Made by a program: the position numbers. Of a DNA stretch of 64,000 nucleotides, positions 24,001-39,000 are shown piece by piece (the first letter of the stretch is position 1; every line of letters starts with the position of its first letter). The stretch comes from Perna viridis (taxonomy: Eukaryota). The stretch is from the NCBI GenBank assembly GCA_037379345.1, contig CM074524.1, positions 16,922,750 through 16,986,749 on the forward strand, written 5' to 3'.

Positions 24001-27000
24001 GATAATACTGGAAAGATTGTAACCTAACTTTGCATGAATCACTGAATGTTCCTATGGTATTCTTAACAATACTTGTGTTGGGATTTTTGATCTGGCGAAA
24101 AAAAAACATGACCAGCTTACTGAGCTAGTGTTGCTAAAATAGACTGTTGAGGGGGCAAATCGCAGAATTTTTCAAAGAACTCAAAACAATTGGGTTTAGC
24201 TAAAATCTGCTTAAATCTGGCAGGAGTAAAATTGCCAAAAATTTTCACGAAGATCCATTGATGGATAAATGAGTTATTGGTCCTGAAATGGATTTTTCCA
24301 CCGTATTTACATTTCCAACTTGAAATCTTCTCCTGAAACTTCTGAATATATTGAAACAAAATTTAGCATAAATGTTCTGTAGAACTAACAAACTGTGCAT
24401 GGGTATTTTTTATCTGTTGAAATGCATGGCCTGCTACCAGTACTAAAAATAGATTATAGGGTCAAATTGCAGAATTTTGCAAATGACTCAAAAGCAGTTT
24501 ATTTTTGCTAAAATCTGGCTGGAGTAAAATTGTTCTGCAGGATGGGATGGACCTATGCTGAAATTTTCAGAAAGATCCGTTGATGGCAGAAATCACATTG
24601 TGTCAACACTTGGTGACTGTCATGGCAATGCTCTCTGTTGATTAAATGATTCTTGTGGCAATAGAACAGTAAGGGTCGAGAGTCCAGCTTTAGACAGCTA
24701 AAATAAAACTATGTTTGACCAGGTGAATGATCCAGGCTCTCTGGAGTCTCTAGTAGTTACATAACCAATGTTTTTTTCAGTAGTACGACCAGTGTATATC
24801 TCAGTAGTACGACCAGTGTATTTCTCAGTAATACCATCAATGTATTTTTCAGTAATATCTCCAATGTTTTCCATATATTTTCAGTAATATCAGCATCCAG
24901 TGACACTACAGTTAAAGTATGGAATGCACACAAGGGATTCTGTATGTCAACTTTACGGACTCACAAGGTTAGAATACTGTTAAATATACATCTTAATAGC
25001 TTACAAAAATGTTGCTAAAACAAATTTAAGTCCTAGAAAACAGTGATTTTTAACAGCCTTTATACAGGCCTTGCATGAGTGGTAATTACAAAAATAAACA
25101 AACTACATTATAAGTAGCAGTTATTAATTATTGAACTGAATAACAGGGCCTTGTGAAAGTACCTCAATATATGGTATAAATATCCTTTACGTGGGTGGAT
25201 CCAAGATTACAAGGCGGGGAAAATGCTGTCTGTAGAGAATGGCATTAACTCTTGGATAAAGATTGTCTGCAAAATCTAGATTTCGCGTAAAAATACTGAA
25301 ACTCTTAAGGGCTACCGAAGGAAAAAACTCTTTCACAATTACAATATCCTGTGTCAATATCACTATATATTGTGTGTCAAAATTACAACATACTACATTG
25401 CATATCATAGTTTTGACAAAGTATGCTGTAATTTCAACATACTATGTTGTAATTTTGAAATACTATATTTTAATTTTGACATATGATGTCCCAATGTCAA
25501 CCTAGGTTTATTGTAATTGCAGTATATTTTTTTCTTTTTCAAGTAGTCTTAAGCAGCTTAAACATGTTAATTTTCCATTTTATTTTTTTTCCCTGGAGCA
25601 TCCAGTATTCCCTATCATCTGAATCTGCCAATGTGTAACTTTTATGAATGTATTTTACATGGATTATAGGATTATGTCAAAGCTTTAGCCTATGCCAAAG
25701 ACAAGGAACAAGTAGCATCTGCTGGGCTGGACAGGGCCATTTTTCTGTGGGATGTCAATACACTGACTGCCTTAACTGCTTCTAATAACACAGTCACTAG
25801 TAAGTATTGTTTAGCAGGGCTGGACAGGGCCATATTTCTGTGGGACGTCAATACACTGACTGTCTTAATTGCTTCTAATAACAGTCATTAGTAAGTCATG
25901 GTATAGTCCAAGTCATGTTACCAGGAATAAGAATGGCCTTTACCATATTTCTGTGGAACATCATTACTTTAAACTCCGAATAACTATTTATCTTTTATTC
26001 ATCTTTATCAGTTTTATAAATGATTATGATCATTAGACAAACTTTTTAGATATTTCTTTTTATTTTCCACCCATGCCAAAAAGTTAGATTGACTGGATAG
26101 TGCTTTTTTTCAAGCTTTGATGAAATGTACCATGAAAACTTTGGCAGGATTGTTTCTCCATAAATTCCTTAAAGGGGACTGCTTGCTATGTATGGGCTAG
26201 CACAGTAAAACTCAAGTTAGAAAAATATGGAGTGTTCTATTGGTCATATCTTAAAATAGTGAAATACATATATCTGCCTTTTGCTTAGGACCTAATACTG
26301 CAGTCAACCAATCACTATATCTGTTCTTTATTTTTTTCAGCATCTAGTTTAAATGGAAATAAAGACTCTATCTACAGCCTTGCAATGAATCCCCCAGGGT
26401 CCGTTATTGTGTCAGGATCTACAGAAAAAGTGTTAAGGGTTTGGGATCCACGGACTTGTCAGAAACTCATGAAACTTAAAGGGCATACAGATAATGTTAA
26501 GGCATTGGTGCTCAACAGAGATGGCACTCAGGTAAATCATCCTCGAAAAGATATTGTGTAAAATCTACCAGACAACTGAAGATGTCTATGGATCATTGTT
26601 GTTGTAAATTTAATTTTACTATCCCAAATGAATCCTTTTCAAGCTGTTTCAAGAAGCTGTTTTAATTTTGTTTTATTAATCAACTTTTTAGTATGAAAAA
26701 ATTAAATGAACAATTAAATTTATCATGTTCTTTGTGTGTATATTTTTTGTATGCGGAATAAATGAATCATATAACCAAAACTTTGTCTGTCTTGTGTTTT
26801 AACCATTTGCCTGATGGGCTATGGCTAAAGCTAGAAACTAGTAATATTTCAGTTCAATTTTTTATATTTGTTTTGGCCATGTACTAACTGTCTATACAGT
26901 TATTTAATTTGGCTATTACTAAGTTGTTAAGTAGCTATAATGCTTTTAGCACAAATCATGTCGTTTTCTTTGAAAGTGATACTTGGCTCTGTGGCTTATT

Positions 27001-36000: not shown

Positions 36001-39000
36001 ATTTATAGAAACCATTCTATTTATAGATAACATTAATGGTATGATGACAGATGGAGGCGGGGGAGATGTCAGTCATCAGTATTTTGGTGTACCTGGCCAC
36101 ACTCCTGTTATATTCTGTGAGGTGGGAGGTCGTGCTTTGTTCAGACTTTTGGCGAGGGATGCTGGAGGTGACACAGAACAAATGTTATTGAATGAGACAG
36201 TACCTTCATGGGTTGTGGATGTAGTTGTTCATGTAAGTTATATTTTATGAATGAGACAGTACCTATATGGGTTGTGGACATAGTTCATGTAAGTCATATT
36301 TTATGTCCTTCTCCAATGTGTTGGGAATAGTATTTTTTTTCAATTAAAAAGCAGAATTTCCATTTTTAATTCAGTATTCACTGTTTCAATTCCTTTTTTG
36401 TGTGTTTAGTTTGTATTTACTTATGAATATGTCATTGTCAGCTTTTTATAAGCTTGGAAAAATTTGGAATAAACTTTTTTGTTTGATAATTTGTTATGTG
36501 ATTGGTCGAAATGATGCACTAATTATTTCAGATGTATTGTTAAAAAGAACCATTCAGTTATTTTTTTTTAAAGTACAAAATTTAGTCCTTTAAATTAAAC
36601 TCTTATATATATTTCTAAAGGAACACATTGAAAGAAAAACAAACCCCTTACTCATTAAAAATTCTTATATTAATTTGAAACAGGAAGAATTAAGCTCTCA
36701 GAAGTAAAGTATTTATGGTTTGAATAATATTATAAATGTTTGGTTATTTTTTCTTTCCAGAGAAACACACCAAAATCAAATAAGATTCCATTCTTTCTCC
36801 AGCCACACCCATGTACTGGAATTAAAACAATAAAAAAGTAGGTTTATGAGGTTTGTAGACCTAGAGTAAGGGACACAACTCTTACAAATCATGGGAATGT
36901 TTGTGCATCAATCTCATGTAAGCATCAAAGTAACTTGGACTGATTTCAGTCTGTTTTTAAGGAAAGCTTGAAAGGCTTTGGTGAAATTGAATATGATACA
37001 AACATATAACAGATTTCAAGAGTTATGTCCCTTACCCTAGGTCTACCTCCTTAAATGTGAAAAAGAAGCTTACATAGTTATGGCAATGTAAATGAAAAAT
37101 GTAAAAGAAAGTATTGTTAAGGGTGATATTCGAGTACAGGAAATTTCATTTTTTACTTATTATTTCCCATTTTTAGTTCTTAAGCTTTGGGACTGAACAT
37201 TGAAATTGTGATTTGAATAAAATATTTAATACCCCATCTTACTCAACAATAGTGAGAAAAATTGGGTAGGATTAGGGGAGATGGTGGCACATGCATATAA
37301 GCCTGTGAATTAAGATTAACACTGTTGACTATTTTTAGAGACAGATTGTCTGCCAGTGATATGATACAGATCAGGAAAGTCATTGAGCATGTGTATGAGA
37401 AAGTTTTAGGTCAAGGGTCAGAAACAGGGTCACAGTCAGGTAACGGAGGAGACAATAAGACAGAGAAAGAGAAGTCATCTGACTCGGCTTTAACAGAGGA
37501 CAAAGTGGAACTGTTGTGTAATGATCAGGTAAAGCTTGGTATACATACTTTAGGTGCATTCAAACTATTGTCATCAATAACTTATCTGCTTTGTATACAA
37601 ACTTTAGGTGCATTCAAAATACTGTCATCAGTAACTTACATGTATGTTAACTATACACTAAAGCTAGGTATCTTTATGAGGAGTGTGCAACACCATATAT
37701 CTACCACACTAAGATTTTTATTCTTACATGTATATAAGTTGTGTTCAAAGTAATATCGGTAACTTGCCAAACTAAAGTAAAGCCCAAAATCTACCAAATG
37801 TAAGCAAGTGTTAAAAATTCTGTCATCAGTACTACACGTAAGCTTGTTATGTATATAATTCTAATCATGCTTATAGCTGTTTTTGATTGGCCGAGAATGT
37901 CGTCGATCGTTCATACATGCATGAACGCCAGTCAATATGAAACCAATATGGCGGCCATGTAGTTCGGAAGAGTGTGGCAACGAACTGAACGGCATAATAT
38001 AGCCGTAAGAATAGTTCATTACATGCACATTGATTTTACCGGTCAAGTTTGTTTACAGAGAGCAATTTTTCAGCTTGGGGAAAGAAACTTATAACTGAGT
38101 CTGACTGAACCCTTGAAAACACCTTGTTATAATTTTCCTTCTTCCTTGTATTTCCTTAATAATTATATTCCTGTTGAATTGTTTACATCTCGTATTTTTC
38201 AATGCCAACTATCACTTCGTCCATGCTGCCTTCACTGTCATTGTGCAGCTGATTATGTGTAAATATTCGTCTGCGCTCCCATGCATGTGCAAAGGAATAT
38301 GTGTGTATTGAAACATAAAAAGTGTATCAATATAACCGACTGACTTGACTGTTGGATAGAATTATAAGGATTGAACAGCTATTTTCGGTCGTTCATGCAT
38401 GCATGAATGACCGAAAATAGCTTTTCAATCCTATAATAATTTTAGACAGACAGAAATATTTTATCAGAAACGTCTTTTTTCATATGCTAAAGTTTCATTT
38501 TATTTTGTCAGGATTTATGTTTTTGTCAGTTTAATTGTCAATGAGTTGTGGGACACAATGTTTTTGACCCATCCGTCCATCCATTTTGACAGATATCTTT
38601 CTATAATCTTGAATGAATGCTTAGTAATGGTAAAAGCATGGATGGGATTGATTTTTCTCAGGAATCCGTCAGGAAAGACCACTTTTTTTGCTTACAGGGA
38701 CTGGACTTAAGAGTGCAATTAAGGGCAGATAGGTTATTGTAAACATGCTTACTAGTTTTAGAAATTTTCAGAAGTATCTTTCCTTCAGTAATGTGAAAAG
38801 TTCTGTAATTGCAAGTAAACATGCTTGAAATGTTAAGTCTGTTGCATTGTTGTCACACTTATTTCTGAACTATAAGTAAGTGTAATTACGTATTACAATG
38901 AAACCTGTCTAAACTGAACCCTGAATAAAGTGAATACCTGTCTAAACAGAACCCTGAATAAAGTGAATACCTGTCTAAACAGAACCTTGAATGAAGTGAA

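What the first reader, a model, noticed from the sequence alone, without database searches (positions are those of the whole stretch)
24765..37650. Tandem duplications repeatedly centred on splice junctions across WDR48
Seen: at least 5 of the 34 junctions are locally duplicated (exon-4 acceptor x5, exon-5 donor x2-3, exon-7 donor x16, exon-15 acceptor x2, exon-15 donor x2), and a ~57-bp duplication starts at the exon-17 donor (~37530-37650). In each case the intact coding copy is kept and the extra copies fall into the intron. I saw none at the VPS13B junctions. Inference: this looks like more than chance and suggests a mutational process targeted to exon-intron boundaries (e.g. co-transcriptional R-loop or nucleosome-edge slippage), or a selective filter that tolerates only junction-spanning duplications. 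It would be a mechanism of intron growth and latent alternative splice sites.
Basis: partly seen in the sequence, partly recalled or inferred. Interest (0 to 1): 0.7.

Follow-up and report, generated by a model that had tools for sequence, protein, structure and literature searches.

The report
Tandem duplications spanning WDR48 splice junctions
In a mussel WDR48 gene, six splice junctions have been copied in tandem into the neighbouring intron, a kind of repeat already known from human genes, and one gene cannot show whether junctions are a preferred target.

Summary
The duplications are real. The exon-17 repeat (54 bp x1.9) starts at intron position +6 and does not contain the donor. The exon-contiguous copy is always the intact one. 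VPS13B has 0 of 21. The best protein matches are Mytilus, so this is a mussel, not an oyster.

Each array is a known kind: a minisatellite whose first monomer spans an exon-intron boundary, as in human F7 intron 7.

Whether the clustering exceeds chance depends on the null:
- Placing only the duplicated unit at random gives about 1 expected against 6 observed (P about 1e-4).
- Comparing with how much of these repeat-rich introns is covered by local repeats gives 3.3 expected against 6 (P about 0.1).

The test is post hoc, rests on one gene and has no replication in the window. A filter that tolerates only junction-spanning duplications is contradicted by five purely intronic arrays in the same gene. 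A junction-targeted process is neither shown nor excluded; a genome-wide test is needed.

The parts
20152..39926 (+). WDR48 coding region, 18 exons: E1 20152-20211, E2 22219-22359, E3 22796-22871, E4 24885-24967, E5 25670-25799, E6 26341-26531, E7 27060-27164, E8 28665-28784, E9 29548-29616, E10 30328-30418, E11 30980-31077, E12 31767-31874, E13 33036-33135, E14 33719-33790, E15 36027-36232, E16 36761-36837, E17 37339-37528, E18 39831-39926.
   Evidence: tblastn of the Mytilus californianus, Pinctada and Argopecten WDR48 proteins. Splice sites were read. Exon-by-exon Pfam gave WD40 and DUF3337.
22136..22269 (+). Exon-2 acceptor duplication, about 70-nt unit x1.9. The upstream pseudo-copy is 22136-22199 and the real copy is 22205-22269 (14 intron nt + 51 exon nt).
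   Evidence: TRF score 168. 51 of 64 columns identical. The pseudo-acceptor scores 10.0 against 14.8 for the real one; using it would add 69 nt, in frame and without a stop.
24764..24891 (+). Exon-4 acceptor minisatellite, 24-nt unit x5. The unit is 17 intron nt plus the first 7 exon nt; the last (real) unit carries an 8-nt insertion.
   Evidence: TRF 24764-24871, 4.5 copies. Sequence read. A 14-nt exact match spans the junction. All four pseudo-acceptors would shift the frame.
25721..25967 (+). Exon-5 donor duplication, 93-nt unit. The real copy is 25721-25814 (79 exon nt + 15 intron nt) and the pseudo-copy is 25814-25906. A weak partial third lies at 25943-25967.
   Evidence: TRF score 293. 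84 of 92 identical with 3 gap nt. Third copy 20 of 25 identical. Using the pseudo-donor would add 91 nt, out of frame.
27154..27712 (+). Exon-7 donor minisatellite, 29-34-nt units x16. The first unit is the last 11 exon nt plus the start of intron 7.
   Evidence: TRF score 479-657. 16 junction-motif copies, 15 with GT, 9 with the identical 9-mer. Unit alignment. The in-frame read-through meets a stop just beyond the first pseudo-donor, which itself would add 29 nt out of frame.
35984..36034 (+). Exon-15 acceptor duplication, 18-nt unit x2-3. The real copy is 36015-36034 (12 intron nt + 8 exon nt).
   Evidence: TRF score 67. 18 of 20 identical. The pseudo-acceptor scores 7.9 against 7.7 for the real one, and would add 18 nt in frame without a stop.
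36189..36303 (+). Exon-15 donor duplication, 59-nt unit x2. The real copy is 36189-36247 (44 exon nt + 15 intron nt) and the pseudo-copy is 36248-36303.
   Evidence: TRF score 172. 51 of 56 identical with a 3-nt gap. The pseudo-donor 9-mer is identical to the real one; using it would add 56 nt and meet a stop.
37534..37638 (+). 54-nt x1.9 duplication in intron 17 that begins at intron position +6 of the exon-17 donor. It does not contain the junction.
   Evidence: TRF score 175. 46 of 51 identical. Sequence read.
21271..21529 (+). Purely intronic array, 86 nt x3, in intron 1 (comparison set).
   Evidence: TRF score 441. No junction within 15 nt.
25411..25483 (+). Purely intronic array, 21 nt x3.5, in intron 4 (comparison set).
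   Evidence: TRF score 90.
34366..34511 (+). Purely intronic array, 78 nt x1.9, in intron 14 (comparison set).
   Evidence: TRF score 211.
38899..39239 (+). Purely intronic array, 33 nt x10.4, in intron 17 (comparison set).
   Evidence: TRF score 535.
47211..63353 (-). 3' part of VPS13B, 11 exons and 21 junctions in the window. It was used as the control gene.
   Evidence: tblastn of the Mytilus coruscus VPS13B and a Tegillarca protein. Splice sites were read. 0 of 21 junctions are duplicated.

Best explanation
These are six independent, ordinary local tandem duplications. Two of them expanded into minisatellites. The likely mechanism is replication slippage or unequal exchange (inferred). They sit in a gene whose introns are unusually rich in such repeats, and each happened to include a splice junction.

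They persist because nothing is lost. The copy contiguous with the exon keeps the authentic site: the most upstream copy at donors and the most downstream copy at acceptors. The other copies become silent pseudo-sites inside the intron. This is the arrangement described for the human F7 intron-7 minisatellite and several other human genes, where only the exon-proximal donor is used.

Shown here: the anatomy, the independence of the units, and the intactness of the coding copy. Inferred: the duplication mechanism and the silence of the pseudo-sites.

The excess at junctions within this one gene is left as an unreplicated, post hoc observation. It is not taken as proof of a junction-directed process.
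For: 1. All six arrays are head-to-tail repeats whose terminal unit contains the authentic junction.
2. Copies differ by about 9-25% and carry frame-breaking indels. They are therefore old and of different ages, not one burst and not identical assembly copies.
3. The 13 TRF consensus units of the window showed no clear similarity to one another. 77 of 78 pairs stayed below z = 2.5, and the one exception (exon-2 acceptor unit against the intron-17 unit) had z = 2.5, P about 0.04, uncorrected. The exon-7 junction motif occurs 0 times elsewhere in the window. Both point to independent local origins.
4. WDR48 introns are repeat-rich in general. 257 of 1645 control positions (15.6%) have a local duplicate, against 27 of 1193 (2.3%) in VPS13B introns. 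Five arrays lie wholly inside introns.
5. On a coverage basis the junctions are not significantly enriched: 6 of 34 against 3.3 expected, P 0.10; at a stricter threshold 4 against 3.2, P 0.4.
6. Using a pseudo-site would shift the frame or meet a stop at all 15 exon-7 pseudo-donors, the exon-5 and exon-15 pseudo-donors and the four exon-4 pseudo-acceptors. This fits silent copies.
7. None of the 120 listed proteins contains the 23-residue extension that the exon-2 pseudo-acceptor would encode.
8. Precedent: minisatellites whose first monomer spans an exon-intron boundary in F7, IFI6 (6-16), CBS, LMNB2 and PDGF, with only the most upstream donor used in F7 (PMC1557585; abstract, passages).
Against: 1. 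Only the originally duplicated unit can capture a junction, so random placement of the unit is the null I consider mechanistically most appropriate. Under it the expectation is 0.91-0.98 hits against 6 observed, P(>=6) = 6.5e-5 to 1.6e-4.
2. The position-based equivalent agrees. Donors must be in a first copy and acceptors in a last copy; 1.7% and 2.4% of 8196 intron control positions qualify. That gives 0.70 expected against 6 observed, P 6.2e-5. At a stricter threshold it is 4 observed, P 0.0046.
3. Whole-array placement with 15-nt slop gives 7 observed against 2.5-3.0 expected, P 0.0016-0.0076.
4. In all six arrays the intron-side breakpoint lies 12-23 nt from the junction, and the seventh repeat starts at +6. 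For the three long units this is one-sided odds of about 0.006 by my own arithmetic. The zone was defined after seeing the data.
5. Slower decay of the constrained copy could explain at most about a 1.6-fold gain in detectability (my estimate), not about 6-fold.
6. I saw no RNA data, so the silence of the pseudo-sites is assumed.
Confidence: 0.6

Rival explanations
1. Short tandem duplications in this lineage arise preferentially with a breakpoint in the first or last 25 nt or so of introns. This is a mutational bias linked to transcription, splicing-factor occupancy, chromatin edges or slippage-prone splice-signal sequence. Junction-spanning copies are therefore produced more often than chance allows.
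For: - Seed-level tests: about 1 expected against 6 observed, P about 1e-4.
- 7 of 11 arrays have an end within 15 nt of a junction, against 2.5-3.0 expected.
- The intron-side breakpoints lie at 12-23 nt in six arrays and at +6 in the seventh.
- The arrays have different ages, 75-91% matches, as expected of a continuing process.
Against: - The test is post hoc, on one gene, and comes from a scan of unknown size.
- There is no excess on a coverage basis.
- 0 of 21 VPS13B junctions are duplicated, although the power there is negligible.
- The other 28 WDR48 junctions show no trace of older, decayed copies: their scores are 2-10, against a control median of 6.
- Breakpoints are not consistently T-rich: T fraction 0.20-0.65 against an intron mean of 0.35. 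No consistent microhomology was seen there either.
- Six literature searches found no paper reporting a genome-wide enrichment.
Confidence: 0.2
2. Duplications arise anywhere, but junction-spanning ones are kept longer or favoured. Possible reasons are that extra U1 or U2AF binding sites help exon definition or protect the transcript, or that sequence next to exons is sheltered from the deletions that erase repeats deeper in introns.
For: - Most pseudo-sites are still intact. 14 of 15 exon-7 pseudo-donors keep GT, all four exon-4 pseudo-acceptors keep CAG, and the exon-2 and exon-15 pseudo-sites score like real sites.
- 2 of 3 acceptor duplications are in frame and open.
Against: - In the exon-7 array the donor motif is no better conserved than the rest of the unit. 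Column agreement is uniformly 70-100%.
- Apart from the exon-17 repeat, no arrays lie near a junction without spanning it. The other four lie at least 187 nt away, which a deletion shelter would not predict.
- The in-frame count has odds of about 0.26 by chance (my arithmetic).
- The usage of the sites is unknown.
Confidence: 0.1
3. The duplications are assembly artefacts, for example collapsed or expanded repeats, or two haplotypes laid in tandem where conserved exon meets divergent intron.
For: Mussel genomes are highly heterozygous (my recollection, not from any call). I had no reads to check the assembly. The copy number of the 16-unit array is the feature most likely to be mis-assembled.
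Against: - The copies differ by 9-25%, with indels that break the reading frame inside exon-derived parts. That is far more than allelic difference in a coding exon that is 89-100% identical to Mytilus proteins.
- The units are short (18-93 nt) and of six unrelated sequences.
Confidence: 0.03
4. The arrays are satellites carried by transposable elements that landed next to exons, and their resemblance to exon ends is secondary.
For: - A repeat-rich, element-like stretch (about 23300-24755) ends 9 nt before the exon-4 acceptor array.
- Bivalve elements carrying tandem repeats are known (my recollection, not from any call).
Against: - Every array includes 7-79 nt of exon sequence that encodes residues conserved in other bivalves. 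The units therefore derive from the gene itself.
- The units are unrelated to one another, and the exon-7 motif is absent elsewhere in the window.
Confidence: 0.03

Closest known systems
Human F7 intron-7 37-bp minisatellite whose first monomer spans the exon 7-intron 7 boundary, and the like cases named with it: IFI6/6-16 intron 2, CBS intron 13, LMNB2 and PDGF intron 4. Source: Borensztajn et al. 2006, PMC1557585 (abstract, passages).
   Same: - It is a head-to-tail array whose first unit is the end of the exon plus the start of the intron.
- The authentic donor is therefore followed by many pseudo-donors of the same sequence.
- The exon-7 array here has 29-34-nt units, 16 copies and 11 exon nt; F7 has 37-nt units, 5-9 copies and 4 exon nt.
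   Different: - Here six junctions of one gene are affected, three of them acceptors, and four arrays have only 2-3 copies.
- Usage of the pseudo-sites and copy-number polymorphism are documented for F7 but are untested here.
Internal tandem repeats at exon-intron boundaries in human genes within segmental duplications. Source: De Grassi and Ciccarelli 2009, PMC2812944 (passages).
   Same: Tandem repeats overlap exon-intron boundaries and can offer alternative splice sites.
   Different: Those repeats vary between recent paralogues and create new introns from exon sequence. Here the exons and introns are the ordinary ones of a single-copy conserved gene, and the repeats only lengthen existing introns.
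Intron gain by tandem genomic duplication of an exon segment. The potato RdRp case (PMC4974935) and Drosophila (PMC2809761) were seen only in the search listing.
   Same: A short tandem duplication supplies a second copy of a splice signal.
   Different: In that model the new intron lies between the two copies inside a former exon. Here no new intron is made; the duplicated junctions belong to long existing introns.
Intronic minisatellites linked to splicing decisions in C. elegans (CeRep25B). Source: Glauser 2014, PMC4039745 (passages).
   Same: Minisatellites in introns next to regulated exons.
   Different: CeRep25B is a dispersed family that carries regulatory motifs. The units here are unique to each site and derive from the adjoining exon.

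Membership tests
Minisatellite with its first monomer spanning an exon-intron boundary (F7 intron-7 type) | Head-to-tail tandem array in an intron | tested here: met
   TRF arrays at all six sites; unit alignment for exon 7.
Minisatellite with its first monomer spanning an exon-intron boundary (F7 intron-7 type) | The terminal monomer contains the authentic junction, with exon bases on one side and intron bases on the other | tested here: met
   Exon parts are 51, 7, 79, 11, 8 and 44 nt. Intron parts are 14, 17, 15, 18-23, 12 and 15 nt. This is not met for the exon-17 repeat, which starts at +6.
Minisatellite with its first monomer spanning an exon-intron boundary (F7 intron-7 type) | The splice-site sequence is reiterated in the intron as pseudo-sites | tested here: met
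   Exon 7: 14 of 15 pseudo-copies keep GT, and 8 are identical to the real site over the 9-mer.
Minisatellite with its first monomer spanning an exon-intron boundary (F7 intron-7 type) | Only the exon-proximal site is used in normal splicing | not testable with these tools
   No transcript data were available. Indirect evidence only: 0 of 120 listed proteins carry the exon-2 extension, and most pseudo-sites would break the frame.
Minisatellite with its first monomer spanning an exon-intron boundary (F7 intron-7 type) | Copy number varies between individuals (VNTR) | not testable with these tools
   There is a single assembly and no population data.
Intron gain by tandem duplication of an exon segment | The intron is bounded by the two copies of a duplicated exon segment and consists of little else | tested here: not met
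   The affected introns are 528-2235 nt of mostly unique sequence. The duplicated units (18-93 nt) sit at one end only.
Tandem alternative splice sites that yield in-frame isoforms | The distance between sites is a multiple of 3 and free of stops | tested here: inconclusive
   Met for the exon-2 acceptor (+69 nt) and the exon-15 acceptor (+18 nt). Not met for the exon-4 acceptor or for the exon-5, exon-7 and exon-15 donors. Usage is unknown.
Transposon-borne or dispersed satellite family | The same unit is present at other loci, independent of the host gene's exon sequence | tested here: inconclusive
   Within the window there are 0 other copies of the exon-7 motif, and the units show no clear similarity to one another. 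The rest of the genome was not available.
WDR48/UAF1 gene | N-terminal WD40 propeller plus the C-terminal DUF3337 region, and closest to named WDR48 proteins | tested here: met
   Exon-by-exon Pfam: WD40 in exons 2, 5, 6 and 7; DUF3337 in exons 15 and 17. Per aligned stretch the Mytilus californianus WDR48 is 89-100% identical over 14 of the 18 coding exons and 71-82% in the stretches that run past an exon end; exon 18 matched only the Pinctada and Argopecten proteins.

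The most novel reading that the evidence does not exclude
In this mussel lineage, short tandem duplications are generated (or kept) preferentially with one breakpoint 6-23 nt inside an intron from a splice junction. Splice junctions would then be repeatedly copied into introns. This would be a junction-linked route to intron growth and to new alternative or decoy splice sites, perhaps tied to what occupies the splice signals on DNA or nascent RNA in the germ line.
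Probability: 0.17. Interest if true: 0.8.

Novelty: new member of a known kind. Interest (0 to 1): 0.42.

Why it matters
If junction-spanning duplications are simply frequent in repeat-rich mussel introns, this locus is a tidy natural example of how a gene tolerates up to 15 consensus pseudo-donors behind a real one. In that case it mainly matters for gene annotation, because such repeats invite wrong splice-site calls.

If the excess at junctions holds genome-wide, it would point to a mutational or selective link between splice signals and small duplications. That bears on how introns lengthen and where alternative splice sites come from. The question can be settled cheaply with an annotated assembly.

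Tried and rejected
1. By eye the 34-nt exon-7 unit and the 33-nt intron-17 unit looked related. Cyclic local alignment against 200 shuffles found only a shared hexamer, so I dropped the idea.
2. Special conservation of the donor motif within the exon-7 array: none was found; the columns are uniformly conserved.
3. T-rich or pyrimidine-tract breakpoints as a slippage cause: there was no consistent pattern, and no consistent microhomology.
4. TRF with periods up to 2000 nt added no further tandem arrays in the genes. The repeats at offsets of about 302 and 307 nt seen are not contiguous tandem copies.
5. A search for any protein carrying the 23-residue extension of the exon-2 pseudo-acceptor found 0 of 120 listed hits covering it.
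6. Pfam on two retroelement-like frames at 17259-17743 gave no match. Pfam on two VPS13B exons also gave no match.
7. Six literature searches for a genome-wide enrichment of tandem repeats at splice junctions, or for mussel intron repeats, found precedents for single loci only. PMC3152781 (Daphnia tandem repeats) has no passage on splice sites or exon-intron boundaries.
8. The joined (spliced) protein model was not built or searched. Exons were searched one at a time.
9. Orthologous introns of other mussels could not be compared.

Full report
**What the region is.** The window is not human. Its best protein matches are mussel proteins. A single exon (36032-36232) retrieved WDR48 from Mytilus californianus and M. 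coruscus at 90% identity. tblastn of three named bivalve WDR48 proteins laid out 18 coding exons on the + strand between 20152 and 39926; per aligned stretch the Mytilus protein is 89-100% identical over 14 of the 18 coding exons and 71-82% in the stretches that run past an exon end, and exon 18 matched only the Pinctada and Argopecten proteins. I fixed the splice sites by reading the sequence and the split codons. Exon-by-exon Pfam searches gave WD40 (exons 2, 5, 6, 7) and DUF3337 (exons 15, 17). The organism is a mussel-like bivalve rather than an oyster. The spliced model was not joined or searched as a whole; exons were searched one by one.

**The control gene.** The 3' part of VPS13B lies on the - strand (47211-63353). 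It has 11 exons and 21 junctions in the window, mapped with the M. coruscus VPS13B protein.

**The observation.** Tandem Repeats Finder on the whole window lists 11 arrays with score >= 50 inside WDR48. Reading them against the exon map gives the following.

| Site | Unit and copies | Coordinates | Exon nt / intron nt in the real copy | Identity between copies |
|---|---|---|---|---|
| Exon-4 acceptor | 24 nt x5 | 24764-24891 | 7 / 17 | 82-85% (TRF) |
| Exon-5 donor | 93 nt x2, plus a weak partial third without a donor | 25721-25906, third at 25943-25967 | 79 / 15 | 84 of 92 |
| Exon-7 donor | 29-34 nt x16 | 27154-27712 | 11 / 18-23 | 75-86% (TRF) |
| Exon-15 acceptor | 18 nt x2-3 | 35984-36034 | 8 / 12 | 18 of 20 |
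| Exon-15 donor | 59 nt x2 | 36189-36303 | 44 / 15 | 51 of 56 |

In the exon-7 array 15 of the 16 motif copies keep GT, and 9 of the 16 carry the identical 9-mer CAGGTGAGT. The exon-17 item is different. It is a 54-nt x1.9 repeat at 37534-37638 that begins at intron position +6 and does not include the donor. In every case the copy contiguous with the exon is the intact one. The intronic copies of exon sequence carry 2-3-nt deletions and substitutions. An ungapped scan of all 55 junctions for local copies that cross the boundary singled out the same six (scores 13-27). The other 28 WDR48 junctions scored at most 10, and the 21 VPS13B junctions at most 9. The junctions are not centred in the units.

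**Independence and age.** The copies differ by 9-25%. Cyclic alignment of the 13 consensus units of the window against shuffles left 77 of 78 pairs below z = 2.5. The one exception, the exon-2 acceptor unit against the intron-17 unit, had z = 2.5 and P about 0.04 uncorrected. The exon-7 junction motif has no other copy in the window. These are therefore separate local events of different ages that derive from the gene's own exon ends. They are not one burst, not a dispersed family, and not identical assembly copies.

**Is it more than chance?** The answer depends on the null model, so I give all of them.
- (a) Whole arrays placed at random in the gene, strict TRF coordinates: 4 spanning observed against 2.1-2.6 expected, P 0.13-0.25. 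With 15-nt slop, which is needed because TRF clipped two arrays just short of the junction and which also admits the exon-17 repeat: 7 observed against 2.5-3.0 expected, P 0.0016-0.0076.
- (b) Coverage. 257 of 1645 intron control positions in WDR48 (15.6%) have a local duplicate within 700 nt, against 6 of 34 junctions (17.6%). Restricted to offsets up to 100 nt, coverage is 9.7%, which gives 3.3 expected against 6 observed, P 0.10. At a stricter score it is 4 against 3.2, P 0.4.
- (c) Seed level. A junction can be captured only by the originally duplicated unit, and selection then forces it into the terminal copy. So I placed only the unit at random in the gene with the arrays collapsed. Expected 0.91-0.98, observed 6, P(>=6) = 6.5e-5 to 1.6e-4, for 11 or 13 arrays, with or without forbidding in-exon placements.
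- (d) The position-based equivalent of (c). Donors must be in a first copy and acceptors in a last copy; 1.7% and 2.4% of 8196 control positions qualify. Expected 0.70 against 6 observed, P 6.2e-5. At the stricter score it is 4 observed, P 0.0046.

I regard (c) and (d) as the mechanistically proper nulls. They indicate about a six-fold excess. Three limits apply:
- The hypothesis was formed on this gene, by a reader looking for anything unusual in a scan of unknown size.
- The uniform null ignores any dependence of duplication rate on local sequence.
- The only independent data in the window, VPS13B, has 0 of 21 with about 0.06 expected (my arithmetic), which has no power.

The other 28 WDR48 junctions show no sign of older, decayed copies.

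**A regularity I cannot explain.** The intron-side breakpoint lies 12-23 nt from the junction in all six arrays, and the seventh repeat starts at +6. For the three long units the chance of so short an intron part is about 0.006, one-sided, by my own arithmetic, and the zone was chosen after seeing the data. Breakpoints are not consistently T-rich, and I saw no consistent microhomology.

**What the extra copies could do.** A small weight matrix built from the window's own 27 donors and 28 acceptors places many pseudo-sites within the range of real sites:
- exon-7 pseudo-donors, up to 12.7, equal to the real site;
- exon-15 pseudo-donor, 10.1, equal to the real site;
- exon-2 pseudo-acceptor, 10.0 against 14.8 for the real site;
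- exon-15 pseudo-acceptor, 7.9 against 7.7 for the real site.

The matrix includes the real sites, which favours identical copies. Using any pseudo-donor, or any exon-4 pseudo-acceptor, would shift the frame or meet a stop. The exon-2 (+69 nt) and exon-15 (+18 nt) pseudo-acceptors would give in-frame insertions without stops. None of the 120 listed relatives carries the exon-2 extension. In the exon-7 array the donor motif is no better conserved than the rest of the unit, so there is no sign of selection on the pseudo-donors. No transcript data were available, so usage stayed unchecked.

**Comparison with what is known.** A minisatellite whose first monomer spans an exon-intron boundary, so that the authentic donor is followed by identical pseudo-donors, is described for human F7 intron 7 (37-bp unit, 5-9 copies). 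The same paper cites like cases in IFI6/6-16, CBS, LMNB2 and PDGF. In F7 only the most upstream donor is used, which the authors explain by 5'-to-3' scanning (PMC1557585; abstract, passages). Tandem repeats at exon-intron boundaries that alter splicing are also reported for human genes in segmental duplications (PMC2812944; passages). Intron gain by tandem duplication is a different arrangement and does not fit here, because no new intron is created (listing). Six searches found no paper reporting a genome-wide excess of tandem repeats at splice junctions or describing this in mussels. The library is open-access only, and supplements were closed, so this is not proof of absence.

**Verdict.**
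- The duplications are real, and each one is a new member of a known kind.
- The 'intron growth and latent splice sites' part is supported descriptively.
- The 'junction-targeted process' is suggested by the seed-level tests and the breakpoint regularity, but it is unreplicated and post hoc.
- I put about 0.6 on ordinary independent duplications in a repeat-rich gene, about 0.2 on a real mutational bias, about 0.1 on retention or selection, and a few per cent each on an assembly artefact and on a transposon origin.
- The genome-wide test that would decide could not be run here.

Noticed in passing
window 1-16200: A tandem array of at least four 3672-bp units. Each unit carries a histone H1 gene on the - strand (for example 4663-5232, 189 aa, Pfam Linker_histone E 8e-29) followed by a histone 3' stem-loop (4578-4623, 8250-8295, 11922-11967, 15594-15639). 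The first unit holds the 200-base N run (1142-1341), which was left untouched.
   Followed up: partly
window 42488-43382: A 50-bp satellite (11.5 copies plus degenerate 35-, 50- and 123-bp variants) lies in the spacer between the convergent 3' ends of WDR48 and VPS13B.
   Followed up: no
window 47000-47171: An 86-bp x2.0 duplication (96% matches) begins about 40 nt downstream of the VPS13B stop codon, probably in its 3' UTR.
   Followed up: no
window 60669-60837: A 28-bp x6.1 array lies in the 666-nt VPS13B intron between exons C and D. Residues 356-396 of the M. coruscus VPS13B model have no match in the window, so a divergent small exon or an annotation difference may sit here.
   Followed up: no
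window 23300-24755: Intron 3 of WDR48 holds an element-like stretch with internal repeats at offsets of 68, 307 and 535 nt. It ends 9 nt before the exon-4 acceptor minisatellite. Its family is unknown.
   Followed up: partly
window 34581-35101: Two copies about 220 nt long at an offset of 302 nt lie in intron 14. TRF does not report them as tandem, even with periods up to 2000 nt.
   Followed up: no
window 37339-37753: Reading through the exon-17 donor keeps the frame open for 74 more codons, straight through the 54-nt (18-codon) duplication. The M. californianus 'isoform X2' used as reference (643 aa) also ends just after exon 17: its alignment stops at residue 641.
   Followed up: partly
WDR48 introns against VPS13B introns: Local duplication is about seven times denser in WDR48 introns (257 of 1645 control positions, 15.6%) than in VPS13B introns (27 of 1193, 2.3%). 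The reason is unknown.
   Followed up: partly
window 16200-20150: The sequence upstream of WDR48 has retroelement-like open frames (17259-17743, + strand). Two of them gave no Pfam match.
   Followed up: partly
proteins P0002 and P0058: The M. coruscus WDR48 and VPS13B proteins are both listed with the same longest-contig length (1065123). This suggests the two genes are neighbours there too. It is an inference from that number only.
   Followed up: no
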